Positions 7,932 to 33,836 of a DNA stretch of 59,459 bases are shown here, in pieces; positions within the stretch are counted from its first letter, which is position 1; each line of letters begins with the position of its first letter. Made by a program: the position numbers and the translations under genes. The notes beneath the pieces were generated by a model. That model worked only from the letters and a program-made list of their open reading frames with translations. It was not told where the DNA came from and made no database searches. The stretch is from Phoronis australis. Taxonomy: Eukaryota; Animalia; Phoronida. Location of the stretch: positions 729,880 to 789,338 of the forward strand of contig NMRA01000067.1 in assembly GCA_002633005.1 (NCBI GenBank). Reading direction: 5' to 3'.

Positions 7932-8079
7932 ATGGATACTCGGCGCCTGTACCGTCGTCAAGTTGCAATATTCGCTTGCCTCTACCTGGGCTATGCTATC
8001 TATGTACTCAACAGGAAAATGTTCTCGTATGTGATTCCTGTTGTCATGAAGGATTTGGACTTATCAAAAGGAGATCTTG
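7932..8079 (+). CDS. SLC37A4: SLC37A4 coding exon 1 (MDTRRLYRRQ...YVLNRKMFSYVIP...KGDL-G)
   Basis: 148 nt, donor G|GTATGA; probable acceptor at 7867 gives a 64-nt UTR part. Confidence 0.9.
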
Positions 8080-11000
8080 GTATGAATTGAGTTCTTGTTT
8101 ACCGGCCCTTTTATCCATCTGGCAGTATTCATGGCAGATGATCAGTTTCAGTTCGGTCCTTCCTGCGGACTCCGTACTTGTTCTTTTTCCAGGAAATGAG
8201 CGGTTTTTATTTCAACTACATAAAATGCCGCCGTGGCAACATTTTATAGTCAAAGTCAACTTCGACAGTACACCGAGGAATTGTTGATTTTCACAGTTTC
8301 TACTCAGACCACTTTAATTCTTATTCATATTGATCTCTGCATCCACATATCTCAGCACTAGGTCTTAGGACAAGTTGCTCTTCATCAGTTGAACGTTCAA
8401 TAATGGCCCATCCACTAGTATCAGGGTGATAGCTGATAAGCAACATCTCCCTTCCCATGTGTCATACAGGAAAAAGTGCCTGCATTACAAATACCCCTCC
8501 CTTCAGTTTCAACTCTAAATGAACTAATCAGTTTCCAAGATCAGATAACAACCCCTTCTGAGGTCTTTTATTAGAGCTCACAAGTCATAAGCCAATTACC
8601 TGGTCCCTTAGTCAACAGAACAGAAATGATGACATTGATTTTGGCTAATTTCAAGGGGAGACAATTCCAGCTTTTCACAGTGAATTCAATTTCTGATGTC
8701 AAGCAGGTTGTCACATTACTACTTATATTGTTTAATTTATTTCAGACAGTATTTTTTTGGCTTGAAATCATCTTAATGTGGTAATTGTCATTCCACATAA
8801 AAGGAAGTTACATCAATATTCCCAATATCAAAGGATACTGTCTTCTGTGATCTGTGCTAACCTATTGATAAACTACACAGGCCCCAGGCCTCTCATGCCT
8901 CAGTGCAGGCCAAGTCTCTGGAATATGCACAGCTGGAAAGTCATGATAATTGAACTGGGCATTAGTTGATTAGAGCAATCTGCACTATCTCTGTGTCACA
9001 CTGGTTTCAATTTGTGCTAGTTGATCACATGTCTACATGGTCACTTGTTCCTGTTGACTGTGATCAGCTGCCTACCTGAGCACAACTTTCTCGTCATAGC
9101 TGTTTTTGACTAATATCTTGATACCAGATAATTAAATTATGTAGCAAGGGAAAAGGGTCTCCTGTCAAATGATTGAAATAGGAAAATGTTTTTGTTCTTT
9201 TATGAAATCTCCCCATAACAATGGACTCCATATGGACATTCAAAATAGCCAGATGGTCAAGTTTTATAGGTGTTCGATGTGCCTAAGCTGAGTGTTACAC
9301 AACTGGCAGACTGTATGATAATCTTCATGGATTCAGGCATGGCCTGACCTCAGATAGATCTCTGAGGCTTGACCCAGGACTCAGTCCCCTCTTGCCTTGC
9401 TCACAGATGACTTAAAACATGTACATAGGTCAATTTGCCCACACAGCCTGAAAAGTAAAGGACATATGGTTCACGTTGCATTGCTTCGCTTATTTCGCAA
9501 TAATGATAATAAATGCGAAAATTGTCATTGTTTTCTATTGTCCAACTTTTGATTATCTTGATAACTTTGGCCACATGCTTTTTATTACATCTCTACTGTA
9601 CAAATGAAATTTTAATTTTGCTTGAGAAATTTTGCCAAAATGAAATTTCTCGTGTCCACCATATTGTGAACTATATGGACGGAGGAATTTCTGCATAATC
9701 GCTGTCTTTTTTTCACGCGAGTTATTTCATCTGCTCATGCTGTAGCTAAAGCCCAACAATGGCTATACACACAGCTGGAACCTTTATTTTCATAATTCCT
9801 TAGACCCCGTAGCCGAGATTGCTGAGTTTGTTGTTTTGGTCACAGGCATTGGTTTTGATCAAGAAGGCTGTGGTAGAACAGAAGGCTATATGCATGTTAT
9901 TGCTATGGCTGGTCAAAGTAAAGGTGACTCCAATTTTGATCAATCTGTAGAATTTGGGACAGCAAAAATTGAATTTTCTTCATTGTGAAATTTGAGACAA
10001 GGCCAATTTTGGTATTTATCATATTTCTCAAATTTCGGACAAAGTATTTTCACTTTACGGAGTGGGGTACTCTTGTTGCCTTTCCAGTGATTCTTGAAAT
10101 TGGGATGACCAATATTACCTATTTCTGGAAATTGGGACAAACTCTGTCCCAAATTGGAGAATTTTTGCCTGTGTGACTGTACAATTGCATTGCGTCTGTT
10201 AGTTAAACAACCCAAAATATTCCTCATTTGGCAAATCCAATGTTTTTGTTTGTTCAATGTTGAAAAGTCGCCATTTCCTGCTCTGCATCCACACAGGATA
10301 CACAGCTGGGACAAGTTAGCACTCCCATATGTTAAACCACATATTTTAGAGGGATGTGTAAATTAAATAGTTTTGCTTGCTGCACCTTTGAAATTGCTGG
10401 GTGCAGCAACCTCAGCTAACCCACATCATAATGTGCCGATTGTTTATCTTATGGTAATGAGCATGTTTATATGTTTTGTTGCAGGTCTGATAAGCAGTTC
10501 ACAAACACTGGCCTATGCAATAGCCAAGTTTGCACTGGGTGTTCTCTCTGATAAGTTCAGCTCAAGAGTTCTCTTCATTATGGGATTGGTCTTAACAGGG
10601 CTGGTCACTCTTATCACATCATGTAAGAACACACTTCTTCCTTCACTTGACTTGATTATGTTGCCTTTCTGAGAACAAAGAGTTAACTTGATCCATACTG
10701 ATGACAAAGAATTAGTCAGAAGACCTATTGTGTGAATTAAACTTCCTAGTAGGCATTTGGTACACCCAGGAGGAATGTATATATACTGTAGATATATTGT
10801 TAAAATTAGACCCTAATTTTGATTTGTTTATAATATATACATATACACATACATATTCATATGCATATGCATACACATATTCATATGCATATGCATATAC
10901 ATATACATATAAATATATGTATTTGCAGATGACAGCTTGAATATTTTTCTATAAAGCAGCTATGGAACCTCTGTTCTGTCGAGGGAAAGAGCTCTTGATT

Positions 11001-14000
11001 TAGGCCACTTATCGCTATGAAACTTGTGACAAAATTTTCTGTACTCCAATAACATGTGGTTCATGAGCTTGGAAAGAACTGACAGTTTGTTATTGCTGAG
11101 ACCACACCCAGCTCGACACCATACCCAACTCACACCATACCCAGCTCATAAAATGACCTGCTGTGATAAGCTAAGTTGTTGAACCAGAAGCGTGTTCAAC
11201 AGAGTGAGCGCCCGCTAGCGTGTACTCGCGAACACAAGGAACAGCTCCTGAACAGCTGTGAGCGCTCACTATGCGATCCAGTATGGCGACTCTGAAGCAG
11301 ATTGTGTTGAACGTGTTAGCCGATGAGCTTAACACTAACAGTCCTTCCTATGGCATACTGAGCGATAAATATGATTAATCTTTTCCAATAATTATTAATA
11401 TCGGCAGCCCAATTGACAATAACCGTGAAGGCTTTGGCCCGACAAGAATCGGAAATTACGTCGAGGAAACTGTTCCTCGCTACAGCGACCCGCAATTTAA
11501 GTCGCAGTTTCGGATGAGTCGGTCAACTTTTGAGGTTAGTTTTCGTGTTGCAGAACCATAATGGGTTCATATATGTTGCAGACGTGAAGCCTTCGCAGGA
11601 CGCCATCTTGGAAATCTAAGCGAACATGCTCTCGAGGTTGTTCGCGAGCGCTCGCGAGCGCTAACGTGAACACAGCTGTTCAGGACGAGGGCGCTCAAAT
11701 CGCTCGCGGGCGCTCACTCTATTGAACACGCTTCTGGTCTCCAGCAATAATCCTGCTGAGCCCCCATGCCAAGAATTGTAGATGACACTTGGATTACCTC
11801 AAAATCCAACTGTGCCTGGTGGTATGGTAAATTGACCCAACTATGTTGCACCCCCCTCACTGACAGAATTAATGAGGAACATATTATTGCAACTTTAGCT
11901 TGTAAAAGTCACATTTCTTGTCCATTTTTCAAAATTCAAAAACCTAATCATGTGCGTTTATCACGAACTATTCAAATATGCTATTTAAAAACTTTCAAAA
12001 CGAAAGCAAATTTAAAAATACTACTGTCGCCCCCAATGTGTTTGTGATGGGTTTCATTGTCTGGAGAATGATAACATCACAAGTCTGAGGCAATTTACTT
12101 AACCACAACAGCATCATAGGCGGATCCAAGGGGGTTGGATCCAAGGGGGTCGGACCCCCTTTTTCCCTTGATTTTAATGATATCAAATCTAGAATCTTCA
12201 AATTGTTGTCTTGGATACCCCTTTTTCAAAAAATGCTTGATCCTACCACCTTTTTTAAAATCTGGCTCCGCCACTGTGCATGGTGTCTTTGATCTGAACG
12301 GGCAGATTCTTTGGTGCTCAAGCTGGTCAAGTTGCCCAATCTCGACCAGTTACTGTGTCAACTTGTATTTTTCCTACGCCGTTATCACCTGTAATGCGAG
12401 GAACAAGCTAAGACCACTTTCAGAACTGTGATTTAAATCAAAAGTTGTACGCTGGTATGTAGTCGTTTTAACATGTAAGTTGAGATACATGGAAAAGTAA
12501 TTAATTAATTAGACAGATGACTTTACTAATGTATTGTGCTAAAATATTCTTGTGTATGATTGTTGTAACAGGTAAAAGGCCATTATATCTGTACAGGAAG
12601 ACTTCTTGAGATATGTTCTTTTGCAAATTTAGAAAACATGCTTAATAAAACACCACAATAATTCTGGTGTGCTGGAAACATTTTGTCAGCTCCAGGACTT
12701 CATCGGTTGTCCATATGAAAAGACGTAACAAATTAGTGGATTTTGTCTATGGCAAAGTTACTCACTAGTGGCACTGATGGTCATTTTTCAAACTGAGCGA
12801 CGGCTGTTGGCTAATAAGCATCCGCTGACGTCACTGAAAATTTGGAGACACGTATAACTCAGTGCCGTGTTTCGTAGATGCAAGAATCTAGCATGTTTGA
12901 TCGTGTGTTTCAGTTATAATGCTTCATGAAACTTACGGTAGTTACGTTTTTGCACTTTTTTGGCCTACGCAGTGCAGGCTTGGTGTTTTGGGCAGTGAGA
13001 TTTAACTTCAATGTAAATATCTGTGTGTCGATTTGATGCTATTGTAGCTCACTTCAATGGTGAGCTCAGCTGGCAAGCACTGTTTTTTCTCATATGGTTT
13101 GTAGCAAAAACATGGGGCATGTAGTAATTCCCACCATGTTTAATTTTTTTGCTCAAGAAAATGATTCATTGTGGTTGATATCTCAAATACATTTGATGTC
13201 TGATGCACTGTAATTGTATGTATTTTGAGACGAAATTGTAGTTTGTTCAGTAAAGCTAGCATCATCACATTTGTGTGTGGGAGGTCATAGGTCAGTGGAA
13301 CAATTAAACCACCTCTTTGATCTATGTGAATGTCACACTGTAACTTCACAGTATACCAAACCAGAGCCTCAACACAGTTATGTAATCAACTGGTTATCAT
13401 CAAAGTTATCTGTAAACTACAGCTTGTGCTGTGTTGATAATTTTCATATTTTCCAAAGTTCTCAATTCTGTTTGCATGCACTTTCAATGTTGCCTATCAT
13501 CGGAACTCAACTGTGTACTGTTTTTTAAATCATTAAAACTTGTATGCGTAGGGCAGTTTTGAAATCACTCTGCTGTCTGTGGCATCACCTGTTAGTAAAG
13601 GACACTCCCATTACCATGAAAAATATTCTGTAGGGTTGTGTTTTCTTGACATGATTACTTGTTCTATTCTTATAGTGACAGAGACTGTTTTGGTGTTTCT
13701 CCTTGTCTCCTGCCTACAGGGGGCGTGCCAGGGTCTGTGTACACCGTCCCTTGTCATGCTATTCTGCAAGGTATCTTCTTGAGTTTCTGTCATAAGAAGA
13801 GGAATTATTAAACACTTCGTAGCTTTGCGATCTTTACATCATGATAACAATTCCTTCAAATTTCTTTTATTAACGCCTCCTTCCCATTGCAGGTTAGTGT
13901 TAGGTGGATTTTGTTTATCTGTTGTGATTACCAATCTGTATACCATCATATACGCAGCCACTATATGTGTAACTAATCTTTTAACTTATTAAACTTTGTA

Positions 14001-17000
14001 GTGAGTGCATTTGCCAATTAACGTCACAGAGGTGCCTGTGTAATTCATTTGCACCCAGTAATACAGCTCGAACCAAGGATTTTGTATGTGGGGGGAGGAG
14101 GCTCATCAGGACACAAACTTTGTGTGCGCTTGACATTCCTTCAGTACAGGGATGTAAAAGTGACTCGGCAGGGGAAGTCCAAACCTCTAGTCCCTGTTTG
14201 GATCCACACCTGGTTTTTATTGTCACTCTTTATTTCTGACTTACTACTGGGCGGCTCGCAATTCACCAGTTGGTGTAGCGAAGTGAGGGCCGAGCTCAGA
14301 AATGCTTGCATTCAGGTAGATATGTGTGATGCTTGAACTACAGACGTTCTGTGCTGTGTTTTGTGCTCTCAATTAAGTGTTAAAATGAGGGATTTTTATT
14401 CTTTAACGCCACCTGGTGAGTATCAAGTTGCCCATTTTGGGTGCAAAATGCACTTTTGTTCCGTTATCCACTTGAGTTCTGTCCAGTTGTAACCTTGTGT
14501 TTCCATGACTGTTACAAGTAATGCTCTGTTTCAAGCATGCGTTACTCTCTCAGTTGCCAGCTTTGTGTTTTAACCACTTTCGTGTGCAGAATACTGCAGT
14601 CTAAGGTTTGAAGAAAATTGCGGAACTGCTTGAAATGATGCAAAAGTAAAATTACAATGGGTGCATCTAGAAAAGATACATGAAATGCCTGGCTGTTCTT
14701 GCAAGAATGCTGTTGTTTTTTTATTTGTGAAAGAACATATTTCAAGTCAAAGATAATTGGTTTAGATAAATTGGTCTTCATAGAAAATATGTCCCTGTGC
14801 ATAAATCGTTGCAGTCTGCAGCATTTTTATTTTGCTAGAACAAGTTTTGATGCTCATTTTTGTGTTTCTTCACAGGTGTTTCGTCTGTGCCATCCTTTTC
14901 TTTTATGATGTTTTTATTGGGCACCACCAGTGGATGTGGCTGGCCTGCCTGTGCTAAAATCTTAAAGAAGGTCAGTCGCATATACACTTCCTAATGTTGC
15001 TCTACACTCTTAGTGTTTCAGTGGCGACCTGCATCATTTATCTATGAACGAATTATACCTAAGGCATACTGGTTTTCGTCTTGCTTATAATGCTTGTGGT
15101 GCTTCAAAACGCTTTCCTGTTTTAGAAAGTAAAAAAACAGAGTGGGTGTTGGAAAAGCTGTTTTGTACTTTTAACTGTAACAGTCTCTTACCAGATTTTA
15201 AGAACCATTCACCTCAACTGAATGACCAGCGTCAAAATGGTTCTCAAAATCCAGGATGCCCAGTAAGTGGCTATTGGTTAGCTCTTTTGCACTTCTTTTA
15301 CACTTAGTTTCAAAGTGTTATGTTTAAGTGATTTAGTGTAGTGATTATTACTTTGATCAGTCGATTTTACTTGCAGCTGTACAGAGGTACTCTGCCATTT
15401 CAGGAAGTCAGCATGCCAGCATTTGTTACCATTCTTATGCACCCACGTATATATGGTAAAGTTTCCTCAAATTCGAATGTCCAAAACTGTCATTTTTGCA
15501 TTTTTCAATCCTTCATTGTATTGCCTAAAATGTTTTAAGATTTCATTGTGTGTTGATAACAGCTGTATTATATAAGGTTTCAAATAATTGAGTAAAATTA
15601 TGTTGTTGTTTACTCTTGTTGAAAATTTCACTGTTTCGCCATATTGGGTTCTAATTCGAAGAAACATTACCGTATGTATATGTGGCTGTATTATACTGTC
15701 TTCCTGTCCATCCAGCGTCCGCTGCTGTACCTCCGAAACATCTTGATAGAAGTTTGTGAAATTTTACTGACATGCTTCTGGCATAGATGGGCCAAATGGG
15801 AGAGTTTGGAAACAAATCTGACTCCCAGTGTGTCCCCTTGTAGCAATTTTTGTTTTTTTACATCTGTCTCTATTTCGTTGGAGTGCCTTGATGGATTGTC
15901 ATGAAATTTGGCAAATAGGGATGGATTCAACATACGCTGTGCCACTCGGTGGCCATTTTTGCTGTTTTTTCTGTTTTTTGACGTCTGGCTCTCTTTCAGC
16001 GAAACCGCTCTAAGGTTGATTATGACAATTGGTGTATATGTTCCTACTGAGAAGGAAAGCTGACAAAGGTTTTGGACAGTGCTGACTACTGTGGCGGCAC
16101 TTCCTGGTGGCAGTTTTTTTTGCTTCCGCGGATGCGTCGCATGAACCCCTTGCATGAACTTTGTTAAATTTAGCATTAAGTGTATCTCTATGAAAATGCA
16201 AACAAATGGCAGCGGCTTTCAGATGAACCCAACTACCCCATTTGGTTCCTTGAAGAGTTTTTCGAAAAATAACACATTGCTTTCTAGGAAAGAGAAGATA
16301 GCACTCGAATGGATTCGACGTATTATGTCACCCTGTGGTGATTTTTTTATTTTTGAGTCTGGTTTTGGCATCTACCTTTCTAGTCACTCTAAGAATCTTC
16401 ATGCAATTTGGCATGTGGATGTGTAAGTACTGGATTTTGGGTCCAAATTCGACTAGTGGCAATTTTATTTTGTTTGCATTTGCCTTGTTATCTATCAAAT
16501 TCCTTAATGTATTGTCATGAAATTTGACAAATTACTTACTTTGAGGTAGACGATAGCACCTGCCATTTCAGTTAGATTTGACCTTTGTTGCACCTCCTGG
16601 TGACCTTTCTGGGTTTTTTTGTGCCTTCCTTCCCTTAAAACCTCTTGAAGAATCATGGTGAAGGCATGTGTGTTCCTATTGAGGAGAGCATTTGTGACTT
16701 GTTTTGCACTCTCTATTATTAAGTTTACTTGCATTGCATTATGGGAATGTTTAAAATATTGATCATCTCTGTTATCTGTGCGGTGCTTACGGTGGGTGCA
16801 TACCAGTGGTCCGCGTTACCACATTCCAGCAGTCCCCTTTCTTGATATCAATAGGCTCTGAATGTGTGATGTCACACCACCCTGAGCTGTCTGAAGAGTC
16901 CACCAGCCTTTGCTTTAACTATGACCACACCTCTGGGAAATTGCAAGGGTGCAAAACTTGTAATAATTGTTTTATTACCCCTTATGAATTCTGAATAACC

Positions 17001-20000
17001 CAGCCCAGAATACATGTATGCCAATCTGTATGGTTCCCAAATGTTCTAGATGGGCATTAGAGACTTGTTTTGCGGATTTTTTTTTTAACGGAAAACGTGT
17101 GTAATGTAAATGAACAAGCTTCCTCTGAAGTTTCTGTTACTACTTTGGTCTAGTTGCTAGTAGTATTTCCGATTCTATGGTGTATTATTGTTTTCAGTGG
17201 TATTCCCCATCTCAGTTTGGTAGTGTCTGGGGTTTTCTGTCTTCTTCCATGAACTTGACCGGCGCTGTTGGGCCTATGTTGGCTACATATCTGTCACTTC
17301 ACTATAGTTGGCAGACAAGCTTACAGGTGGCAGGTCAGTTGAGTATATTGGGAAAGTTATAGTGGTACTGCATGCATTGTAATAAGGAGTCATGTCTGTG
17401 TAAGTGCTCCTATGTTGTTAGATGGACACAGCAACTGTTGACATCCATGCCGAGTATAGATGTTTTTGCACAGTCCAAGGGCAATTCAAAGTCTATTTTT
17501 GCAGTCAAATCTGCAGGTTTAAGCCAGGCCTGAAAATATCAGACACTAGGCTGTAATGACCAAGACAATAGCCCAGTTGCTATAGTAAGTGCCAACAAAG
17601 GCTGGCTGTGACAACATTACTTCAACTTTACAACTAGTCCATTACAGGCTCACTAGGTATGCTTTCAAAAGCTAAGGCTCTGCAATGCATTCAAGTTTAA
17701 TTACTAATTAGGTATCTTATTATGTGGTTATTTAGACGTATGCAACGAAATCATCAGTCGCATTGACAAAGCAGCTGCCAGGACCATTACCAGGTCTGTG
17801 TGCTGACGTAGACCCCAAAAAAGTCGCGTGATAACTCTAGCTTTGTTGAATTCACAAAGTTCGTGCATCTACAGAATGCAGCTTAGGTAACCCGGTTTTT
17901 GACCTGCTCCTTTACGACAGGGCTCAAATCTTAATTTGAAATACACTGAGAACCTGATGACCTTAGTATTAACTAAGCAGATATGCAAAATGCTCGATAG
18001 ACAAAATTGAAAACAGTCAAAGATATCAACAGAAATGTTGGGAGAGACCTGTTAAATTAGATAAAGTGTTTCCCTGTTTATCTTAGGTGTTGTCTCCCTT
18101 GTGTATGCTGGGCTGTGTGGATTGGTTCTGCACGATTCTCCATCAAGCATTGGGTTTGAGGAGTTTGTCACGAAGGATGAAAAGAAAACGTCAAATGGTG
18201 AGTGATTTGGCATCAGTTGCTGGATATGAGGTACTCTATCATAACATTCTTTTGTGTCTGTTTTTATCTGTATGTTCACACATTACTCACCACATTTTTA
18301 TCAGATCGACACAAAATTTACACACACCATGTGTCTCGTCAATACTTCGAGGCCTTTTATTTGGGGTTAAAATTGGATGCAAGATGACTCTGTGGTGGCC
18401 ATTTTTCGCTGCGCTGTCACTTGACATGCCGTGAGAATAGTGTTTCCAAACCTTGCTACACCAACACCAGGCTAGTCAAGGCTCTTTACCCAAGCCAAGC
18501 AGCAAGTCAAGTTGATTCATTAAGACATGCGTGAGTTAATGGAGCGTGTAATTTTTGTTAGAAAGTACTGCCTCTGTAACTACTTCCCCTGATTTAGGTT
18601 TATTGTATTGGTGACACAAAGGGTATGATAATGCACTGGCCATCTAGGTGATTCTGGTGTGTGTGTGGTGTAATTTATTAAGTAACTCATAAGTCTTGAG
18701 GGATTTTTGTGAGTGTGTAGATCTCTTTAACCGCTTCCTGGGGTATGCCATCCATTTGCAATAACGTTATTGTTCTTGAGGTATTCAAGATTTTATAACA
18801 ACTGACTTTTATTGATTGATTTCTAATGCTGTAACTACAGTCTGTGGATCTTAATGAGAGTGAATTGATCTGGTCAAGAGCTACAAGGAGTGTATATTCA
18901 TTTCCCACTGCTACATTTTCAAGTATTCCAGATTTACTGATTACTATAGGTCCAATGGTAGTATCATACTCATCTGGGTTACCACCCAGGGTGCTTAAAT
19001 TGGGAATCTAAAAAAATGAGTGGGGTGGGCGGAAAGCCGAGCATGGGCGCTTAAAACTGAAAAATTGAATATTTCGAGGGCGGGCGGTAAGCCGTCAGCA
19101 TGGGCGGTAACTGGGACAAGTATAGTATGTTTTTGAGGCTTTCATGTTTTTGTCCTCCCGGTGTTCAAGAACAACTTGGGTTCTGGACCTTTCCTGTGAT
19201 TCGCAGGACCGATCAACTAATTTACACCCAACATGTAACTGATCAATAGTAGCTCAGAGATGTCTTTGGTGAGGGACTCATCACTGTCGCTGATATTCAT
19301 AGTTCATTGATTCTAGAATGGAATTAGTTTTGTATCATCTTTTCATCCATCCCTTCATTTCGTTCACTAATTAGAGGTCTTTAATTTCTTCATTAGTTTG
19401 TATACTTTGCTAATATTGATTAATTGTGTTAAAGGTTGAGGTTTTGTAGCAGACCGAGCAGTTCTAAGGTTAAGCCAAAGGCCAATGAAAGCAGAGCTGG
19501 TCTCCGAATAAAAATGCTGTTTGGCTTACTCTTAAATATTCCCATTAGCACTGGAATTGCTGAGACAATAAGATGTCCTTGTCAGGACAGATTCATTGGA
19601 GTGTTATTGGAAGTCGTGTTGCTCTAATCAACTCCTAAGAGTTCGGGGGGAGGCTTTCCCCGCGACCTTTGTGTTGTCAGTGGGATCATGTCGTTTTCAA
19701 AGATTTTAGTCTTAAAAAATGATACTAAAATTTTGAAACATAGGCAGTAAACTGAATACTCTTATCTTAGGCTGTGCAAAGGGTTCATTTTCTGACTTGC
19801 CCATTATCTACATGAGAAAAAAATCCTTGAGTGTCAAAGTTTTTTCAAGGTTTATTTGCTGGTGACAGCTACCAGATTATCTATATTCTGAAGCTTGCCC
19901 GGGGATTTAATAAGACATTACTATTTTGTGTGAACACCCATAATTTAAAAGATCCATAAAATTCTAAGCCACTATGGGGATTAATTATACTCCCTCCAAG

Positions 20001-23000
20001 CCCAAAAATTCAGAGAGCAATATCATGGTTTACCGTATCTTTCAGATGATTCAGAGTCGAAGCATGAGACGACCAGTGTGGTGGATCTGTTGAGGAGTCC
20101 TTACTTGTGGACCTTGTTCTTTGCATACATGCTGGTCTTTGCTACTAAGACGTGTCTCCAGGACTGGGCACAGCTCTATCTCATTCAAGAACAGGGCAGG
20201 AGTGTACTCATGGGTAGGGATGTTACATTATCCTGGGTACAGTTCAATAATGCTAAGTACCTCGCTAGAAAAACAAGATCTCACAAGATTCCTAGATTAA
20301 AGTGACTATATGTTGAGTTTTTTTGCCAAAGGTGTATGAATTTGGAAGTTTGTATTGGACCATAGCAGTCTTGCCACGATATGCTTGATATCAAAGCTGT
20401 ATGTACTATTTTAGACATTCTCTAATTCTGTGGTATCAACATTTTTATGTTGTTGCATGTCCTGACCCACTTAACTAGTGTATTTCAATTTAATTTAATT
20501 GCAGTATCGTATATTTTAGTGAGCTTTTGGAAATTGCTGCCCTGCAGCCCTTCTCGCACACGCAGGAAAAGTAATTACGCACAAAATCGACAACACATGT
20601 ACAGCAAAAAAGCATATTGCTTGATAACAGATGAAAATTGATAGTAATATTCATTTACTTGCAATCTTTCTGCTGATGAAACCCAGTTAATGTGATTTTG
20701 TGGAAGATTCTATGTTTGGAAGACTAGTTGTTCTAGTTATCAAATTGTACTTTTGAATGTGGTTTTCATTAATGTCACTCTTAGTTTCTCATTCCGATCT
20801 AAAATTGAGTGTTTTAAAAGTAAGTTTTATTAAACTGATGTTCGGCTTGGGAAGATTCATTTGAGGATACTTTTCAGGTAGTCGTAAAATGTCAGCAGCT
20901 GCTTAAAAGTGTATTTTCACAACTTCAATTTTGTTTCACAGGTAGCTCTTTTGTCAGCAGCTTCGAATCAGGCGGTTTGGTGGGCAGTTTTTTAGCTGGA
21001 TTCTGGTCAGATCGCATGGTATGTCTGTTTGTGCTTGCTTGTGTGTGCATGTGTGTTCGTTTCCTTCTTTTAACAAGTATTTATATCATCCATGTGAAGC
21101 TGGTTAACATTCCAGGCTTGTCTATTCACTGATCCACAGGGGGTAATAAAAGATTTATCTTCTTAGCCATTACCATAAACCTTTTGTTAAAGCTGTGATC
21201 ACAATGGGAAAGCATTAAATTTGGTGTTGCATATCTTTCAATGACAAAATGGAGAAAATAAAAGTTTGCCTGTCTGCCATATTGTGTCCTAAATTCAGTG
21301 GTTACTCTTTACCATGCTCAGTCTAGTGACTCATTGACGTAGAAGTTGTTAGTATTTGTGAAATGACCATTGTAAAACCTTGTCTTCACTGACTGAAATT
21401 CATCGGGACTGTCAGACCTTGCAGATTGTAAGTCCGCTATTTAGACTTCTTGTGCAGTACACACTTGTATGTAGTAATTTACTTCAACTAAAAGTTGGTC
21501 AGTCCAAATGAGAAACTTTAGAGATAAGCCCTTGTCATTCTCTCCTGTTGGAAACTGCTGGTCTTTCAGTCTTTTCAAGATCAAACTGTTCTGGTTTGGA
21601 AGACTGTGTGTCAATTTTTTTTTTAAAAATCATAAAGAATCTCCAGTTCAACTACCATACTTGACTGAACCTGTTGGCACGGCAGTACTCTGAGCTGTTA
21701 AAGAACCTATATTTAGACATTGCATGATTTGTTTGGTAAACAACATTCCCAGAATAAGCTCTTTGAAGGTGGAGATAAGAAGACGAGTACCCATCGTAGT
21801 TTTGCTAACAGTTTTCCGTGACATTTTCAAGCTGAGTTAAATATTCCTCAGTGATTTACTGAGCCATGTTACATGTATCTATTGAGCTTACTCTACTTTA
21901 CTGTGGAAATGTTTTTGATTATCGCTACTTCAGTAAATATCTTTCCCTCAATCATATAATGTTGAAAATCTGACAAGTGTGTGCAATCTTGAACTTGTTG
22001 TGTACAAATGCTGGGAATAAAATCTTGTGGCCAGGGCTTAATCCTCTTAGCAACACCACCTTTGGCAACACTCCCGTTTTGGAAGATCAGTAAAAGGTTT
22101 AGAGTTTGGTAAAATCTCACCAATTTCAAACACTAGAATTATTGCCAAAATGCTCTTTCTTTGTTTTCCCAAGGCCTTTAACACATTTGTTAATGCTCAT
22201 AATTCTGAAAACTTTGTCTGAAAGCAGCTGTGGCACAAAACTTGAACATGGAAAAGGGTTAAAGTTAGTGCTACTTATGTGTCATGGAAAAGATGAGGAA
22301 ACAAAATTTCACTGGTCGGCCGTGTTGTGTCCTAAATTGGTGCGATTTTATCCTACGTATCAATGTATAAATTCCCCATCTGGACATAGGTTTGTTCATT
22401 GTTAAGGACATTGAACTAAAAGGATTTAGCCAACATACCAGGATTAAATAGCCCCCTGATGTGGTAATGACTTAATGAGATACAGTATAGGACAACATCT
22501 GGTAGTAACCTCCCTCACAAAGTAACCCAGGGTAAATAAATGGAGCTGATTGTATGGATTATTACATGGGGAGCCTGTTTAGACCAGGCGGGTGTGGGAT
22601 TTGGAGGATTATTCCAGCAAATCTTCTGTAGGATCACTCCTATTGGGTTACAAACACTAGACAACTGACAAAACATAAGTGAAAATATTCATGTGAAGTG
22701 TTGCTATTTCTTACACATGCATTCTGGGCAAGCTAGCAGTTTTCAAGGCTAGTTACATGCTTGATACATTACAAATTCCTTAAAATCAGAAAGCCATGAT
22801 GTTATGCTCAATCCTCAGCTTATATGGACAGAGCAGATATCTGCTCTTGTGAATATTAAGTTAGGTCCTGAATTAGAGGAACTACAACTAGCCACAGCTC
22901 TCCCCATTGTTTGTTAATTCAAATGCCATAGAAGGCCCCATGACTTTTTGAAGTGCCAGAATATAAGCTCAAAACTGATTGAAACTGGAATTTGAGAATA

Positions 23001-26000
23001 CCTTAAAGGTAGAGAAAACAAAAAATGTCTGCAATGCAAAGCAACTTTTCCATACATGGTCGTGTTAAAAGTGTCCAAACAAAGAAGTCAGAGAAGTGCT
23101 GGTGATGTATTTGTGGGATTTTTCTCCATGACTTCAATAAACATGTTGAAAATGACCCCTGATTTAAAGGCGAAGGCAACCTTTTTCCATGTCATTTTGA
23201 GCTAAAATAAGTTTGGTTGGTTATCCTAGACATATTTCCCACTTAATTACAGCTTTTCGTAATTTTATTAATTACTCGTCCGCTACTGCGGAAGTGACGT
23301 TTTAGGAGACAAGCATTTCCTGCCACTTGGTTTTGCGTAGACGTTACCGTGCGAATCTGTTCTATTCTACTTTTGTTTTGTGCTGTTTTTCAACAATTGT
23401 CGCCACCACTTACCATCGGCGAGTATTCTGCGGCAAGATAGGTTAGTAGAGAACTCAACTACGTTGGATTTAGGGAATGTTTAGTGTGTTGTAAGCTGTA
23501 AATGGCTGAAGTCGGTGACCCGTATCACAGTGACAGTAGTGTGAGTGACGGAGACCTTCTTCACAGCAGTGGTGACGAGGATTTTTTTCACGGACATTCA
23601 GTGGGTGGGTACATGTTTGAGCCCGAGTTAACGAGGCAGAGTACGCACAGGCATAGGCAGCTGTTGAGAGAAACGAGGCGGCTACTGAGAACAGACGAGG
23701 TGACACATCTTGGTGCAAATGCACTGTGTGCGTTGTTATCCATACCTCAATGGAATGCTTGTGCTGTTCAGAGTTCGACGAGGCCAAGCCACTACTGGAC
23801 ATGGTTAAGTGGACCTCCGGCATACCACGGACACAGGAACAACTGTCCCGCACTCAGTTGCCAGAGTCTCCCGCGACACACTCCCACTAGATGGTGACCT
23901 GAGCACCCAAACTGCTTACATCGTGTCGTGTGACTCCCTCGCCACACACCTGGCACCTTCTAAATAGNNNNNNNNNNNNNNNNNNNNNNNNNNNNNNNNN
24001 NNNNNNNNNNNNNNNNNNNNNNNNNNNNNNNNNNNNNNNNNNNNNNNNNNNNNNNNNNNNNNNNNNNNNNNNNNNNNNNNNNNNNNNNNNNNNNNNNNNN
24101 NNNNNNNNNNNNNNNNNNNNNNNNNNNNNNNNNNNNNNNNNNNNNNNNNNNNNNNNNNNNNNNNNNNNNNNNNNNNNNNNNNNNNNNNNNNNNNNNNNNN
24201 NNNNNNNNNNNNNNNNNNNNNNNNNNNNNNNNNNNNNNNNNNNNNNNNNNNNNNNNNNNNNNNNNNNNNNNNNNNNNNNNNNNNNNNNNNNNNNNNNNNN
24301 NNNNNNNNNNNNNNNNNNNNNNNNNNNNNNNNNNNNNNNNNNNNNNNNNNNNNNNNNNNNNNNNNNNNNNNNNNNNNNNNNNNNNNNNNNNNNNNNNNNN
24401 NNNNNNNNNNNNNNNNNNNNNNNNNNNNNNNNNNNNNNNNNNNNNNNNNNNNAAGGTCTCCGTCACTCACACTACTGTCACTGTGATACGGGTCACCGAC
24501 TCCAGCCATTTTCAGCTTACAACACACTAAACAATCCCTAAATCCAACGTAGTTGAGTTCTCTACTAACCTATCTTGCCGCAGAATACTCGCCGATGGAA
24601 AGTCGTGGCGACAATTGGTGAAAAATAGCACAAAACAAAAGTAGAATTGAACAGATTCGCACAGTAAGCTCAACGCAAAACCAAGTGGCGGGAAGCGCTT
24701 GCCTCCTAAAACGTCACTTCCGGAATAGAGGACGAGTAATTAATAAAATTACGAAAAGCTGTAATTAAGTGAAAAATATGTCTAGGATAACCAACCAACC
24801 TTATTTTAGCTCAAAATGACATGGAAAAAGGTTGCCTTCGCCTTTAACCAGTGCAGTGCAAAGTATTGTTCTACGGTTTTGTCTACTGACTAAGGCAATG
24901 AAGAACAGTGTGTTCAAAGAGTACACTGATGTTGACTATACTTTAGTGTTGTCTTATGTCTATGATCGAACAGTTGCTCAGTGGATTAATCCCTGCTGAC
25001 ATGGTTCTATTACGTCTATTTTGAAGCAACAAATTCAGTTGTAAGCAATGCATCATGTCAGATTTTCAACACTGCATGTTTGTGTTATGTGTGTTTGGTT
25101 TTTAGCTCGATTTTGCTTCATGAGTTACTGTCTTCTATTAGTGCCAGCCTAAACTGTGTCAGTGAAGGACACAAGACTGACTTTTTTATTTTCATTCCAG
25201 TTGAGAGTGTTCAGTCGACCGTCTCAAGCGCGCACATCAGTTATACTCGTGAATCTGTCATTGGCTTCAATTTTTATTTATCTTCTCATTTTTCGAGTGA
25301 CGGAGGATTCCTCTGAGGTAATTGTGCTCATACTTAATTGTCGTGAACCAAACCCAGTGTGAAATTGAGCTCAAGTTCACCAATTATTAATCAGTTAACC
25401 AACCGTGAAACTCTTGCCAACTCCCTAAAGGGGCTGGTACAATGTAAAATATGTAGTTGAATCCCCCTGGTGTTAATATCCCAAGGTTACTTTTCTTAGT
25501 ACTTTGATCAGTATCAACAGAGTATCAATATCAAATTGATGGTATCTGTGGTAAACTGATGCTGCAAGTCATTAAACCAAATATCATCCACACTGTTGTG
25601 GCTGAGAGGATATTGACTAACCTTACAGGTTAAAGGCTTTGATTTATGTGAACACCATGAAATGAGTGGTGTTCATTGATTACTTAAGGAAAGATTTGTC
25701 ACCACTGACTTTTCATTTTATTCTAGTTTGTGATTTTGGCTTGACATTAGAAACTCAACCTGTTTCACTGCCTCTCAGTTGTGATTTGCCAATAAATTTG
25801 CACAAGAACCACGAGCCTCAAATCTCAATATGACAAACACTGATAATAGTTCTTTTTGTATATAGAGCATAGCAGGGCAATTGCCGCTTTAGTGGTGATA
25901 GTTCTCAACAACAAACCACCATAGTTCCACTGGGTTTTTGTATCTCCTCGAATAGTGATGTGGGACAAAAGACTATGTGAACGCATAACAATGGACTAGG

Positions 26001-29000
26001 TTGATACCGTACACGAAAAAAGTAATGAGACTGTTTCCTCGCCATGACAGCTAATTGTGTGAACTACACAAATGACTGGTAATAACTGTTATGGTGGCAA
26101 AACTCTTAATTACAGCGTGGCTTAGCCACTTTCCTGTTAATTCCCCTTCATTCTCGAACATCATGGGAGACTACTCTGACGGTCATCAGGGGAGACTACT
26201 CTGACATTGAATTTAGCTTCTACCCAGCTGCCATGATGGGAGATTCTGGGTGATTCTGTCTTTTAATAACTTTGTGTACATTGGTCTCATAGGACAGAAT
26301 TAAGTCTAGACTGACGGGAGGTCCTATGTTACTTTAAGTGTAGAAAATAAGTTCTGAATGCTACTTTACAGTCTTCATCAACAGCGCTTCTACATGCTTT
26401 CCGAACTTAGAAATAACTTCAAGCTTCAGTACACTTTGAGACTAGTTTTATAGTTGTTACTGGTCCAACTCAAAAGTTTCTGCTTTAGCACGAAAATTGG
26501 GAAAGCTCACACTCAGTTCTACTTCACAACACTGTAATGAATAAGCTGACCCACATATTTCACATTCCGGGCTTGGCTATTCAGAATTTATAAGTTGTAA
26601 TAAAACATTCATCTTCTCAGCTAGGACCATAAACCTTTTGTTAAGCTGTGTTTAGTTATGCAGCAGTCTAACTGGGAGAGTTGTATGACTAAGAGCAGGG
26701 ACTGTTTTCACTGACCTTGCAAGTCAATTGCAAAATGCTTATTGTGTATGAACTGACACCCATGATTTACAACTGCAAAATTGTAAACTGCTAAGCAGAC
26801 TACTTACCCCTTCCAAGCCCCGAATCTGACTGAGCAAGTTGACCATGTCTGTATTCTTTACTTGGCGAAATAAATTTTGCCAAGTATGTTGCTCTTCCAC
26901 TAAGTTTGTTTTTTTTTTTTTGTTTGTTCGCACGATACAGGCCGCAATTTTCGTCCGATCATCATGAAATTTACACATAACACGTACTTCCGGAAGTACT
27001 GGAAGCCTATTGTTTTTCGTCGAAATCGGATCCAAGATGTGGCGGCCATTTTGTTTTCATTTTAAGATTCAAAGGCTTCTGGAGGCTACAGTTTTTACGT
27101 TCAGAGCTGAAAATCAGCACAATGAATGGCCCGGATGTGCATTACGTATATGCCGGAAATTGTTTACTTCCGGTTAAAGATGGCGGAAATATCGGCGATC
27201 GTGCATGCTCACCTCGATTTTGGGCTAAAAACGTTTTCTCCCGTAGAGGGCGCATTATGAGACCAATTCCTTCGAATTTTTACAAGTATTAGTTTCTTAT
27301 GACATGCTATTGCTTTCAAGATGGCGGTTTTGGCGCATGTTGACCTATTTTCAGCCGTACTTAGGTGCCGAAAATGACGTGAATTTTTGCATGTGGATTC
27401 TTTAACGTATACTCTTTCATATGAACTGTAACAATTTTTTTCTCAGACTTACCGTTTTCGAGTTGTTTGACTTTGAATTTCTTAAAAAAACGCAAAATTT
27501 CAATTTTTTCGAAAAATTTACGGCATTAGGCGATACCATCAGTTTAGATAGAATTTTGAACGAGCTTTCAGAAGATGTTTTCCATTTTTCGCTAGAACGT
27601 CTACTTTTTGAGTTATTTGAGATTTTCTGATAACGCTGTTCCTTTGTTGAGCGCTCTTGCTGCATTGATTTTGGTTTATCTTCTATTGAACTAGACTGTA
27701 GCCTATTTCTTATTGATTTATGACATCTAAGTTCGTCATATGAATGTTGTGATGTTGTTCATCATCGCCACCACCGTCATCATATTCGTCATCATCGTCA
27801 TCATCTTCGTCATCATCTCCGTCGTTGTCTTTTCTGTTAACTTCGCCAAGTGTCGCTCAAAACTGTAGCCTTTTTCTTACTGATTTCGGACTTCAACATT
27901 CGTCATGTGTATGTTGTTATTACTTCTTTTGTTCAACCTCGCCACCATCGTCGTCATATTCGTCATCTTCGTCATCATCTTTATCGTCATCTTCTTGGTT
28001 AATTTCGCCAAGGTTCGCTCCTCGGAGCGCTTTCATCTTAAGTGTCCCCTCTTCTACTCTGAAATTTGTTATATTGCGTGTTAACATTATTTTACTGATA
28101 GTGTCTTGTATTGTTTTAGGTGTGGATCACTTCTCTTGGCTTCGTGCTTGGCGTGTGTGTGTTTGGTTCTACCTGTTTATATGGGGTACTGGCTGTGGAG
28201 AATGCCCCCTCCCATTTGTCTGGATCGGCCAATGCTTTCGTAGCCCTGGGAGCCAATGGTAAGCACTGGTGCACTGTATGACTTCCAATACTTCAAAAGC
28301 TTTGTAATAATAGCCAGACACAATTTGGCATCAGTTGCACATACTTTGCACAGCAGTTGTCAATATTTTGTTTGCAGTTCCAAAGTTTTCTCCTGGATGT
28401 TTTCGTTACCGAGATATCCCCCCATGGAATATGTGCCCATTTTCAATATGAATTCCCATGAAATTGGCAGTATTAAGGTGACATTACCTTATGGCAGTGG
28501 TGTGACATATACCAATGGCCATGAGTCACCACTCCTCAACCTAGGGTGTTATAAATTAGTATTGCTGGATATTTATAGAACTGGCTTACTACACTAGACT
28601 GCATTGCTGAGCAGCCTTCAAGTGCAGCACACTAGGTGACATGCGAAACTTAACTGTATGAGTTATGCAGCTGTGTGGCTAATTGAATTTACAAATCCTA
28701 AATAGCCAGCATTGTGAGTTTTATGAATCTTCAGTTTGAGAAAACCAGTCATCACCGAGATGTGGACTTGTAGCCTGCAAATCAGAAAATGTTGGTTTTT
28801 AATTTGAATTTTATAGTAGCAGTTCAATAATGACTATTGTCTGTGTAAGCTCTGTGTGCAGAACAGCTTAGCTTCAAGGGAAGTTACACACCTGCAACTT
28901 AAGAATGTGTTATTGGTCAGTTGCCATGGCTACAGCAAGTGTAGGGTATGTTGGAGTGTGCACATGTTGCTCACTGGTGCTGTGTGATAAGTTCTGTATA

Positions 29001-32000: not shown

Positions 32001-33836
32001 GGAAAACTGACTTAACACTAAAGTCAGATATTTTTGCTTGTGCTCCACACAACTATTTCCGAAACAAATATTTAGGTCTTATTTGAGCGTAAGTGCAAAG
32101 TCTCTGAGAATAAACACACAACGTCGTTTTACTGGAACGTTATCTGTAGACTGAGACCCGGTCAGTAATTGCTTGGATAAACATTTTCAGTGAAGTGGAG
32201 GCCTAAAATCAAATTTCTGTCTCTTGTCACTTTCAAACCCCAGACCAGATACACGCTAGCGAGCGAAATTAGCGTTGCAATGTTGCGCAAGCGGGTGGCC
32301 ACATTGGGCGCGAAAATTTTAGCGCCCAAAGTAAACAGCAGCCGACAAACACGAAATACTGTTGCTGTGCTTGATATAAAAACGATGAATTTCATAGTGA
32401 ACCGTTGATTGTTTTTGCAATTTTATGTTAAACTTATAACAAGCACGTAGTTCATAAAGACTGCGCATGGCATTTCTTGCAACGTCATGTAGGATTGCGC
32501 ACGCACATATGAAAATCAAATCCAATGTTTTTCCTCTCCCGTTTTTTAAGCAAATGTCTTTGTAATCTTTGTAATCAGCACATTTTGTAGTATGTAGTAC
32601 AGCAACCTCCTTTATCTTACAAAAAATAAATGAGAATGCCGTCCATGTTTAAAAGAAGTAAACAAAATTGTAACGGTCAAATCGAAATTTTGAGGTTGTG
32701 ATTTGTTCAGGCAACGCGATTACGCGAGTGGACGTTGAAGAAACCAAACATTTCCATTTCAGTTTTCATTTGCGGGTTGTTGCACCCGTCGCTCGTTCGT
32801 GTGGAGTCTGCCCAATGCGCTCCATTTTTTGCATTGAATATTTGCTGCAACAACTGGTAATTTCGAATTACTTTCACAGCTAGGTCGAGGATACATTCTA
32901 AAACCATTCCTCTGCTGCAGGACTCGTGTTTATTACAGCAACCCTTATTTATATTCTTTGATCGTTCACAAGCTTCTTTGGGCACTCTGTTTACTTTTCA
33001 ATTCTTAATTTGTTGTTCATTTCCTAAAAGCATAACATGGTGTCTCAAATTCTTGACCCAGTTGGTAACTAGGCTACTTTTTTACCCAGGAGCACAAGCA
33101 AAACTTTGCAAATAAGACTATTCTCAATCTCTACTAAGTGAAACGCATTCATATACATTGTAATCAGTTGGAGCATAGATTATAGACAACAGACATGTAA
33201 TATAGTCTATGGCTGGAGCAATATTATATCGCTGACTCACTAGCTATACAAAACTCAGCCACTTTCCTCGATCAATACACCAAGGAACGTAGAGCAAGTG
33301 GCTACCACTAAATTGTGATTTTATCATTGTTTTCATAGTATTCCTACAGTTGTAGTGAGTGTCTAGAAGTTTTCAAAACCTTATACGTCATATGGCAGAT
33401 ACAAAACTTGAATATGATAGAACATTGATTTGGTGTTTTATATGTTGTATGAAAAAACAGGAAATATGATTTCAGTCGTCGACCATGTTATGTTCAAAAT
33501 TGACGATTTTACCCTAATCGCAAATGGTTCCTCTCCAAAACAGCAACCAACACACGCATTTCAGTCATGGGGCGTACGGTTCTCCATCAATTTGAATTCT
33601 GCAGAACTTTTCGTCTAAATGTCATGTGTACAGCCATGCTTCTGTCCATTTCAGTGGGTGGAATGCTGGCTGGCCTCCCCCTCAGTCTATTGGCCAAGCT
33701 CCACGGCTGGCGAGGTGCCCTGCTGTGCATCAATATTTGCTGTCTGGCCGCCTGTGTTCTTCACTTCGTCACATTTCCTGCAGGTACTGGCGTCTCAATC
33801 AATGAAGAAAGGACTTCTCAGAAGAAAGTAAATTAG
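7932..33836 (+). CDS. SLC37A4: Glucose-6-phosphate exchanger SLC37A4/G6PT (MFS, OPA family); spliced CDS 1311 nt = 436 aa
   Basis: Join 7932-8079, 10485-10622, (13676-13770 OR 14876-14970), 17198-17333, 18087-18197, 20046-20213, 20942-21018, 25201-25317, 28120-28258, 33655-33836. All introns are GT-AG with consistent phases. Motifs NRK(27-29), AYAIAKF..GVLSD, SPYLW, KTCLQDW, GLP and a C-terminal KKxx ER-retrieval signal (KKVN) match G6PT as recalled. Confidence 0.93.
10485..10622 (+). CDS. SLC37A4: SLC37A4 coding exon 2 (GLISSSQTLAYAIAKFALGVLSDKFSSRVLF...)
   Basis: ttgcag| ... |gtaaga; 138 nt, phase 1->1. Confidence 0.92.
10831..10921. repeat. (TA/CA/TG) dinucleotide-type microsatellite
   Basis: atatacatatacacatacatattcatatgcatatgc... 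visible directly. Confidence 0.85.
11183..11738 (+). mobile_element. PIF/Harbinger internal-deletion derivative with transposase first-exon relic
   Basis: ~30-bp TIR (accagaagcgtgttcaa.agagtgagcgcccgc / gcgggcgctcactct.ttgaacacgcttctggt). 11283-11534 reads MATLKQ...YD*...NYVEETVPRYSDPQFKSQFRMSRSTFE|gttagt, the Harbinger/HARBI1 N-terminal FRMSRxTF motif. Confidence 0.85.
12115..12276. mobile_element. hAT-like MITE (CATAGGCGGATCC...GGCTCCGCCACTG)
   Basis: Imperfect TIRs, G/C runs, flanks agcat/tgcat. Confidence 0.75.
13676..13770 (+). CDS. SLC37A4: SLC37A4 alternative coding exon 3a (L-TETVLVFLLVSCLQGACQGLCTPSLVMLFCK)
   Basis: ttctattcttatag| ... aag|gtatct; 95 nt, phase 1->0, no stops; aligns without gaps to G6PT residues 96-127. 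Confidence 0.75.
14876..14970 (+). CDS. SLC37A4: SLC37A4 coding exon 3b (C-VSSVPSFSFMMFLLGTTSGCGWPACAKILKK)
   Basis: tttcttcacag| ... aag|gtcagt; 95 nt, phase 1->0; retains GWP (W118). Confidence 0.9.
15690..16530 (+). mobile_element. Degenerate Helentron/HINE-like repeat
   Basis: Recurrent catgaaatttggc / ggtggccattttt units resembling the internal units of 26857-28039; ends not resolved. Confidence 0.4.
17198..17333 (+). CDS. SLC37A4: SLC37A4 coding exon 4 (WYSPSQFGSVWGFLSSSMNLTGAVGP...SWQTSLQVA-G)
   Basis: ttttcag| ... |gtcagt; 136 nt, phase 0->1. Confidence 0.92.
18087..18197 (+). CDS. SLC37A4: SLC37A4 coding exon 5 (GVVSLVYAGLCGLVLHDSPSSIGFEEF...)
   Basis: tcttag| ... |gtgagt; 111 nt, phase 1->1. 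Confidence 0.88.
20046..20213 (+). CDS. SLC37A4: SLC37A4 coding exon 6 (...DLLRSPYLWTLFFAYMLVFATKTCLQDWAQLYLIQEQGRSVLM-G)
   Basis: ctttcag| ... |gtaggg; 168 nt, phase 1->1. Confidence 0.92.
20942..21018 (+). CDS. SLC37A4: SLC37A4 coding exon 7 (GSSFVSSFESGGLVGSFLAGFWSDRM)
   Basis: tttcacag| ... |gtatgt; 77 nt, phase 1->0. Confidence 0.9.
23502..23890 (+). pseudogene. Frameshifted P2X7-C-terminal (ballast)-like Cys-rich ORF of the Kolobok element
   Basis: MAEVGD...GYMFEPEL, then in a shifted frame with one stop RRGDTSWCKCTVCVVIHTSMECLCCSEFDE (WCxCxxC...ExLCCxE, 23711-23773). Confidence 0.7.
23968..24452. other. Assembly gap (N run)
   Basis: Ns. Confidence 1.
25201..25317 (+). CDS. SLC37A4: SLC37A4 coding exon 8 (LRVFSRPSQARTSVILVNLSLASIFIYLLIFRVTEDSSE)
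   Basis: ttcattccag| ... gag|gtaatt; 117 nt, phase 0->0. Confidence 0.88.
26857..28039 (+). mobile_element. Non-autonomous Helentron (HINE/DINE-1-like) element
   Basis: 5' subTIR plus short IR (acttggcgaaataaattttgccaagt), T/GTTT microsatellite, internal units, 3' subTIR ttcgccaag (28004-28012), then hairpin cgctcc-tc-ggagcg and a T-rich end; (TCA/TCG)n tracts at 27755-27995. Confidence 0.75.
28120..28258 (+). CDS. SLC37A4: SLC37A4 coding exon 9 (VWITSLGFVLGVCVFGSTCLYGVLAVENAPSHLSGSANAFVALGAN-V)
   Basis: ttgttttag| ... |gtaagc; 139 nt, phase 0->1. Confidence 0.92.
29233..29378. repeat. 35-bp minisatellite, 4 copies
   Basis: Unit cagtgacatttatagtataaatagatggtagtaaa, one substitution in copy 4. 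Confidence 0.95.
30405..30524. mobile_element. ~120-bp palindromic MITE-like hairpin
   Basis: atggcaattgtcagatataactttcccacattttgagaaccagtt pairs imperfectly with aactggttctcaacatggggcaggttatatctgactattaccat. Confidence 0.6.
32241..32810. mobile_element. Degenerate TIR element
   Basis: cagac..acacgctagcgagcga versus tcgctcgttcgtgt..gtctg; CpG-rich relative to the intron. Confidence 0.35.
33655..33836 (+). CDS. SLC37A4: SLC37A4 coding exon 10 (VGGMLAGLPLSLLAKLHGWRGAL...SQKKVN*)
   Basis: ccatttcag|; 182 nt to TAG; AATAAA at about 33903. Confidence 0.92.

What the first reader, a model, noticed from the sequence alone, without database searches (positions are those of the whole stretch)
13715..14950. 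Exons 3a and 3b split the conserved G-x-x-Q-G-x-G-W-P motif between them
Seen: 3a encodes QGACQGLCTP (keeps Q114-G-L; W118 becomes T; basic residues 123 and 126 are lost). 3b encodes LGTTSGCGWP (keeps GWP, C121 and K123; Q114 becomes S). Known: QGxGWP is conserved in the GlpT/UhpT/G6PT family, lies in cavity-lining TM4, and human W118R causes glycogen storage disease Ib. Inference: exon choice may switch substrate or inhibitor specificity, or produce a transport-dead or regulatory isoform from a single gene.
Basis: partly seen in the sequence, partly recalled or inferred. Interest (0 to 1): 0.7.

Follow-up and report, generated by a model that had tools for sequence, protein, structure and literature searches.

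The report
Sugar-phosphate transporter with swappable fourth helix
An animal glucose-6-phosphate transporter gene carries two alternative copies of the exon for its fourth membrane helix; RNA reads use the splice sites of both, and the rarer copy lacks the tryptophan that gates the sugar, so it likely makes a second transporter form with changed substrate handling.

Summary
The window holds an 11-exon SLC37A4/G6PT gene. Exons 3a (13676-13770) and 3b (14876-14970) are both 95 nt, same phase; either alone gives an open 436-aa protein, both or neither give early stops. RNA: 3b is the major form (11 and 12 junction reads); 4 of 11 reads on 3a start exactly at its acceptor and 3 stop at its donor, but 5 run unspliced through that donor. 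In 134 animal homologues W118 is 134/134, Q114 133/134, K123 132/134: 3a keeps Q114 only, 3b keeps W118/K123 only. 3a is old (7/31 aa, 37% nt to 3b) yet intact and exon-like in GC. New here: a 24-bp intronic RNA duplex brackets 3a and likely favours 3b. Correction: the motif is not family-wide; E. coli UhpT and UhpC lack the Trp but keep the Gln, as 3a does, so 3a need not be dead. No orthologue of 3a was found, no protein evidence, no function tested. Known kind (duplicated mutually exclusive exons in transporters), not found in print for SLC37A4.

The parts
7932..8079 (+). SLC37A4-like coding exon 1 (ATG; aa 1-49, R28 kept)
   Evidence: NCBIfam UhpC/GlpT hits
10485..10622 (+). exon 2 (Y60, K64 kept), ends in phase 1
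   Evidence: joint 10622>14876
12605..12628 (+). upstream arm of a 24-bp intronic RNA duplex (candidate docking site)
   Evidence: function inferred
13676..13770 (+). exon 3a, 95 nt, minor alternative TM4 exon (Q114 kept; T118, M123, C126)
14723..14746 (+). downstream arm of the duplex (candidate selector, 130 nt before the 3b acceptor)
   Evidence: function inferred
14876..14970 (+). exon 3b, 95 nt, major TM4 exon (GWP, C121, K123, K126 kept; S114, L110, M107)
17198..17333 (+). exon 4 (F134, W138, S142 kept), starts in phase 0
18087..18197 (+). exon 5
   Evidence: joint E4>E5
20046..20213 (+). exon 6 (Y233 and K240 equivalents kept)
   Evidence: model only, no reads laid
20942..21018 (+). exon 7
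   Evidence: model only
25201..25317 (+). exon 8
   Evidence: model only
28120..28258 (+). exon 9 (N in place of human H366)
   Evidence: model only
33655..33836 (+). exon 10 to the stop codon (436-aa protein)
   Evidence: model only

Best explanation
This SLC37A4/G6PT gene has two same-length, same-phase copies of its TM4 exon, 3b the major and 3a a minor one in RNA reads, and choosing 3a likely yields a second, still folded antiporter whose sugar pocket and cytosolic gate are remodelled. Shown: exon anatomy, frame logic (one and only one copy gives an open frame), splicing of 3b on both sides, use of the 3a acceptor and donor positions, residue differences. Inferred: ancient tandem duplication kept by selection; a 24-bp intron-intron RNA stem (12605-12628 with 14723-14746) loops 3a out and so promotes 3b, with nonsense-mediated decay removing double or no inclusion; 3a swaps the aromatic gate W118 for Thr and drops K123/K126 while keeping Q114, the UhpC/UhpT-like pattern, so it would carry G6P with lower affinity or rate, or prefer another organophosphate, and would bind chlorogenic acid less well.
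For: Frame logic: 3a or 3b alone open, both stop at aa 138, neither at aa 104. Reads: E2>3b 2/1/8 and 3b>E4 3/5/4 in X2/X3/X4; on 3a, 4 of 11 laid reads begin exactly at 13676 with no depth upstream, and the 3 X4 reads stop at the donor. Selection: 7/31 aa and 35/95 nt identity to 3b yet length, AG/GT and frame intact; 5 of the 7 shared residues use different synonymous codons; GC 0.54 versus 0.43-0.53 in the other exons and 0.37 in flanking intron; neutral drift of 0.5 substitutions/site keeps splice sites and frame in 5% of 20,000 runs, before indels; no charged residue in 100-126. N-half of 3a fits the family better than 3b (+12.4 vs +2.2 bits). One SNP seen in 3a (13764 C>T) is synonymous. 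Natural Trp-less, Gln-keeping relatives: UhpT, UhpC, P0199, P0200. Stem: longest uninterrupted helix of 45 intron pairs, 0 of 300 shuffles reach 24 bp, antisense only 14 bp, all 3 non-Watson-Crick pairs are G-U, arms occur once each; same layout as the srp upstream stem (PMC4691838 sections).
Against: W118 is 134/134 and K123 132/134 in animal homologues, none 3a-like; 3a scores -3.2 bits against a minimum of 48.5 for homologues, C-half -15.7. Human W118A loses 40%, 70% or more, or all activity in three papers. No 3a joint reached the listing threshold, so partners of the 3a reads are inferred; X3 shows 0 of 4 spliced reads; 5 reads run through the 3a donor and at least one X4 read probably goes 3a>3b. 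All three runs are one study, about 19% read. Stem energy (-28.3) is reached by about 1% of shuffles, no downstream partner stem was found (best 17 bp), and conservation could not be tested. UhpT/UhpC are only 21-30% identical, so their tolerance may not transfer.
Confidence: 0.5

Rival explanations
1. 3a works at the RNA level: splicing into 3a mostly gives unproductive RNA (retained 3a-3b intron, stop at aa 131; or 3a+3b, stop at aa 138) that is degraded, tuning G6PT dose.
For: 5 reads in X2/X3 cross the 3a donor unspliced while none lies just upstream of its acceptor; donor AAG/GTATCT matches 6 of 9 U1 positions; 23 rather than 21 bases in the X4 donor bin implies a read continuing with GT, as 3b begins.
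Against: A poison exon needs no open frame, exact 95-nt length, hydrophobic uncharged helix or synonymous-codon pattern; the X4 arithmetic fits two reads leaving to an exon that starts with T (E4) with fewest coincidences; intron background of about 0.5-1 read depth exists throughout.
Confidence: 0.2
2. Isoform a is made and folds but is transport-dead; it acts as a sensor, scaffold or modulator of the G6Pase system (UhpC-like receptor role).
For: W118A/F/R/C strongly reduce human uptake; 3a resembles the G6P sensor UhpC at 114-119 (QGLCTP vs QGWGSP; annotation, alignment); all phosphate-binding residues in constant exons are kept.
Against: UhpT transports without the Trp; W118A keeps 60% in one study; one paper judges G6PT dimers a detergent artefact, weakening a dominant-negative route; no partner known.
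Confidence: 0.15
3. 3a was once functional but is now a relaxed, decaying duplicate with leaky splicing.
For: Keeps only 4 of 11 positions that are 90% or more conserved; lowest family score of all; low, partly unspliced use; no 3a-type protein among 134 homologues.
Against: No stop, indel or splice-site loss, exon-like GC, synonymous SNP; the simulation cannot exclude recent relaxation.
Confidence: 0.12
4. 3a is a chance intronic look-alike or an assembly artefact.
For: No database hit by 3a alone; modest HMM E-value 0.0096.
Against: Right intron, length, phase and register; reads at 95-100% identity start exactly at its acceptor and cover the flanking intron.
Confidence: 0.03

Closest known systems
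Human SLC37A4 / G6PT (OPA family, MFS)
   Same: E4 E=1e-10 and 3b E=6e-5 to solved SLC37A4; 42-46% identity to animal homologues; introns at c.148 and c.381 shared; R28, Y60, K64, F134, W138, S142, Y233, K240 kept.
   Different: Extra intron after c.286 isolates TM4 as its own exon and that exon is duplicated; the known human variant is a 66-bp cassette exon 7. H366 is Asn; the major form lacks Q114, N110, W107.
Tandem-duplicated mutually exclusive exons of SLC12A1 (4a/b/c), SLC7A2, SLC25A3, SLC39A14
   Same: Homologous alternative exons in a transporter, exclusion enforced by frameshift (passages of PMC8373072 and PMC5740500).
   Different: Here the copies are only 23% identical and one drops a residue invariant in 134 orthologues that contacts substrate. 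That those human pairs change affinity is recalled, not from a call.
Drosophila srp exon 4.1/4.2 and human ATE1 7a/7b RNA-pairing control
   Same: An upstream intron element pairs with one between the two exons and loops out the first (PMC4691838 sections 5-6; ATE1 abstract).
   Different: Only the upstream stem is seen; no competing or downstream stem; not shown conserved or functional.
E. coli UhpC / UhpT
   Same: Keep Gln114, lack Trp118, lack a basic residue at 126, like 3a.
   Different: Bacterial, 21-30% identical; 3a scores only 15 and 2 (BLOSUM62) against them, so this is a parallel, not descent.

Membership tests
SLC37A4/G6PT orthologues | Sequence similarity and shared intron positions with SLC37A4 | tested here: met
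SLC37A4/G6PT orthologues | Phosphate-site residues R28, Y60, K64, Y233, K240 | tested here: met
SLC37A4/G6PT orthologues | Aromatic gate W118/W138/H366 | tested here: not met
   W138 kept; W118 only in isoform b; H366 is Asn in both (126/134 homologues His). Lowers 'canonical G6PT', not orthology.
SLC37A4/G6PT orthologues | ER G6P:Pi antiport, chlorogenic-acid sensitivity | not testable with these tools
   needs assay
Tandem-duplicated mutually exclusive exons | Homologous adjacent exons, same length and phase, AG/GT | tested here: met
Tandem-duplicated mutually exclusive exons | Both or neither breaks the frame | tested here: met
Tandem-duplicated mutually exclusive exons | Each exon joined to both flanking constant exons in RNA | tested here: inconclusive
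   met for 3b; for 3a splice positions used but partner letters not shown, and unspliced or double forms seen
Tandem-duplicated mutually exclusive exons | Both exons conserved in related species | not testable with these tools
   no genome held, no close relative among homologues
Docking-site/selector RNA-pairing control | Long-range intronic duplex bracketing an alternative exon | tested here: met
Docking-site/selector RNA-pairing control | A competing or second stem for the other exon | tested here: not met
   best alternatives 15-17 bp, or about -21 to -23 kcal/mol against -32
Docking-site/selector RNA-pairing control | Covariation or compensatory mutagenesis | not testable with these tools
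   no orthologous introns

The most novel reading that the evidence does not exclude
One animal gene makes two ER organophosphate carriers by swapping the whole cavity-lining TM4 under control of an intronic RNA stem: a G6PT-type form and a natural Trp118-less, UhpC/UhpT-like form that moves or senses a different sugar phosphate, showing how the residue mutated in glycogen storage disease Ib can be dispensed with.
Probability: 0.25. Interest if true: 0.72.

Novelty: new variant of a known kind. Interest (0 to 1): 0.48.

Why it matters
It is a natural one-helix swap in an otherwise identical transporter: the cleanest possible test of what TM4 (Q114 versus W118/K123) contributes to substrate choice, gating and inhibitor binding in SLC37A4, where three human studies disagree on how much W118A loses. 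If 3a is an active carrier it would be the first animal G6PT form without W118 among those examined here, and would point to tissue-specific ER sugar-phosphate traffic in invertebrates. The splicing mechanism itself is of a known kind.

Tried and rejected
No whole genome held. Word-based homologue search with exon 2 found nothing. 3a alone: no hit in PDB sequences, NCBIfam, Pfam; protein atlas did not complete. Three homologue searches gave no close relative and no 3a-type protein; the tree leaves the gene on a long branch beside an unnamed Logan protein (P0057) near deuterostome sequences, too weak to name a phylum. The look-up of sequencing runs listed no indexed RNA holder; X1 contigs were uninformative. 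Rejected: the short 3a acceptor at 13720 (out of frame; reads start at 13676); a third exon-3 copy (none); steric exclusion (3a-3b intron is 1105 nt); a downstream stem; local hairpins at either arm (z -0.8 and +1.0). The structure job folded homologue P0049, not the window protein, and was not used; the spliced isoforms could not be submitted for folding. In some searches exon 9 was given in the wrong frame and exon 10 began in the intron, so those rows were ignored (redone). Alignment A2 was poor and unused. Literature searches for this exon pair found nothing; earlier scan notes held nothing.
Full report
Gene and anatomy. The + strand carries an SLC37A4/G6PT gene of ten coding positions from 7932 to 33836. 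Exon 4 matches solved human SLC37A4 at E 1e-10 and 3b at E 6e-5; human splice variants at c.148/149 and c.381 (table passages of PMC10718061) coincide with the ends of exon 1 and exon 3, so numbering is human through residue 127. Exon 2 ends in phase 1 and exon 4 starts in phase 0. Between them lie two 95-nt AG/GT exons, 3a (13676-13770) and 3b (14876-14970). Either alone gives an open frame (436 aa); both give a stop at aa 138, neither at aa 104.

Is 3a more than chance? It shares 7 of 31 residues and 35 of 95 bases with 3b; it is the best match to 3b of 88 open-frame AG-95-GT sites (19 against -5), though 2 unrelated open windows of 22,401 score as high. A profile from 134 near-full-length homologues (chosen from 195 proteins then held by aligned length 330 or more; biased to chelicerates, crustaceans and fish, with some near-duplicates; the 9 new proteins were not added) picks 3b, then 3a at E 0.0096, and no third copy among 1944 peptides. 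On its own 3a hits nothing in PDB, NCBIfam or Pfam.

RNA. Three raw-read RNA runs of one study, each about 19% read, were laid. Joints: E2>3b 2, 1, 8 reads; 3b>E4 3, 5, 4; E4>E5 6, 5, 9; no 3a joint reached the listing threshold. A fine lay over 13560-13890 laid 11 reads. Depth is zero up to 13667; in X2 and X4 two reads each begin exactly at 13676 (8 bases in the bin) and carry unlike sequence; the absence of any leftward extension fits exon 2 (ends in T) and not exon 1 (ends in G). All 3 X4 reads stop at the donor; the bin holds 23 bases where 21 are expected, so at least one read continues with GT, probably into 3b, and the simplest reading is that two leave to exon 4 (inference; letters not shown). 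Against a clean picture: 2 reads in X2 and 3 in X3 run through the donor unspliced (stop at aa 131), and X3 has 0 of 4 spliced reads. So 3a is used, as a minor exon with an inefficient donor; 4 acceptor reads against 11 for 3b, mates not deduplicated.

Selection. 3a has GC 0.54, like the other exons (0.43-0.53) and above every 95-nt window of about 2.9 kb of flanking intron (mean 0.37); 5 of 7 residues shared with 3b use different codons; there is no charged residue in 100-126. Neutral drift from 3b (HKY, local base frequencies, my assumptions) at 0.5 substitutions per site keeps both splice dinucleotides and an open frame in 5% of 20,000 runs, and assumed indel rates cut that a further 10- to 100-fold. 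This argues for long selection but cannot exclude recent relaxation, and only intact exons get noticed. The one SNP seen in 3a is synonymous. No close relative was found, so conservation is untested.

The motif. In 134 homologues G111, G115, W118, P119 are 134/134, Q114 133, K123 132, N110 128, W107 and G117 127, L125 125. Both copies keep G111, G115, P119. 3a alone keeps Q114; 3b alone keeps G117, W118, C121, K123, L125 and a basic 126. By halves, 97-115 scores +12.4 (3a) and +2.2 (3b) bits, 116-127 scores -15.7 and +44.4; whole-exon 3a -3.2, 3b 46.6, lowest homologue 48.5. The split is real, but the copies never act in one chain: each isoform has an incomplete motif, and it is notable that the major one lacks Q114. 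In human structures W118 contacts the glucose, forms the cytoplasmic aromatic gate with W138 and H366, and lines the chlorogenic-acid site; W118A loses 40% (PMC13046256), 70% or more (PMC12552596) or all (PMC12857678) activity, W118R/C nearly all, R126D about 20% (passages only; Discussion of PMC13046256). None of those four main texts mentions Q114 or K123. So loss of W118 with Q114 kept is compatible with G6P transport or sensing in the wider family, at 21-30% identity. H366 is Asn in the constant part (126/134 His).

Control of the choice. A 24-bp uninterrupted sense-strand helix pairs 12605-12628 with 14723-14746 and brackets 3a. It is the longest of 45 intron pairs in the gene (next 21), 0 of 300 shuffles reach 24 bp (maximum 21), about 1% reach its energy, the antisense strand gives only 14 bp because the three non-canonical pairs are G-U, and the arm occurs nowhere else in the window. 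This is the layout of the upstream stem that directs srp exon 4.2 (PMC4691838 sections 5 and 6; ATE1 abstract only). No second stem was found. The stem's role is inferred.

Mechanism and odds. Most likely (0.5): stem-biased mutually exclusive splicing gives a major G6PT-type isoform b and a minor isoform a with a widened, less aromatic pocket and weaker cytosolic gate, hence altered affinity or substrate. Rivals: unproductive splicing at 3a (0.2), folded but transport-dead or sensing isoform (0.15), decaying duplicate (0.12), chance (0.03).

Comparison and novelty. Duplicated mutually exclusive exons are known in SLC12A1, SLC7A2, SLC25A3 and SLC39A14 (passages; SLC37 occurs 0 times in either main text; supplements not read and could list more). 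Known SLC37A4 splicing concerns exon 7 (passages of PMC5913288; listing of PMC12766210). Three searches found no report of a duplicated TM4 exon in SLC37A4; the library lacks most subscription papers. Verdict: a genuine new variant of a known kind, interest 0.48, limited by thin 3a read support, no orthologue and no functional data.

Noticed in passing
window 13764: Synonymous C>T SNP 7 nt before the 3a donor: all 5 reads with T (X2, X3) run unspliced through the donor, the 3 reads with C (X4) stop at it. Few molecules and confounded with sample.
   Followed up: no
window 28120-28258: Human H366 is Asn and N354 is Val in this orthologue, two chlorogenic-acid contacts in constant exons.
   Followed up: partly
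window 1796-4909 (- strand): About 1000-codon C2H2 zinc-finger reading frame, head to head with the G6PT gene.
   Followed up: partly
window 11183-11738: Element with 38-nt inverted ends (95%) in intron 2, with reads on both strands at depth 30-70, probably a transposon relic; type not determined.
   Followed up: no
window 12545-12578: A pyrimidine-rich acceptor-like AG directly followed by GT, 34 nt before the upstream stem arm; could be a recursive splice site. No read evidence.
   Followed up: no
window 45110-45268 (- strand): Cysteine-rich exon-like segment resembling the start of a Ly6/uPAR-type domain (resemblance recalled; Pfam gave no such hit).
   Followed up: partly
window 43185-43715: Ten near-perfect copies of a 53-nt tandem repeat.
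   Followed up: no
window 23140-23970 and 24455-24850: Inverted-repeat arms on either side of an assembly gap inside intron 7, seen by eye; likely a fold-back element.
   Followed up: no
window 7700-7870: Probable non-coding 5' exon(s) before exon 1 (GT at about 7767, AG at about 7868), seen by eye.
   Followed up: no
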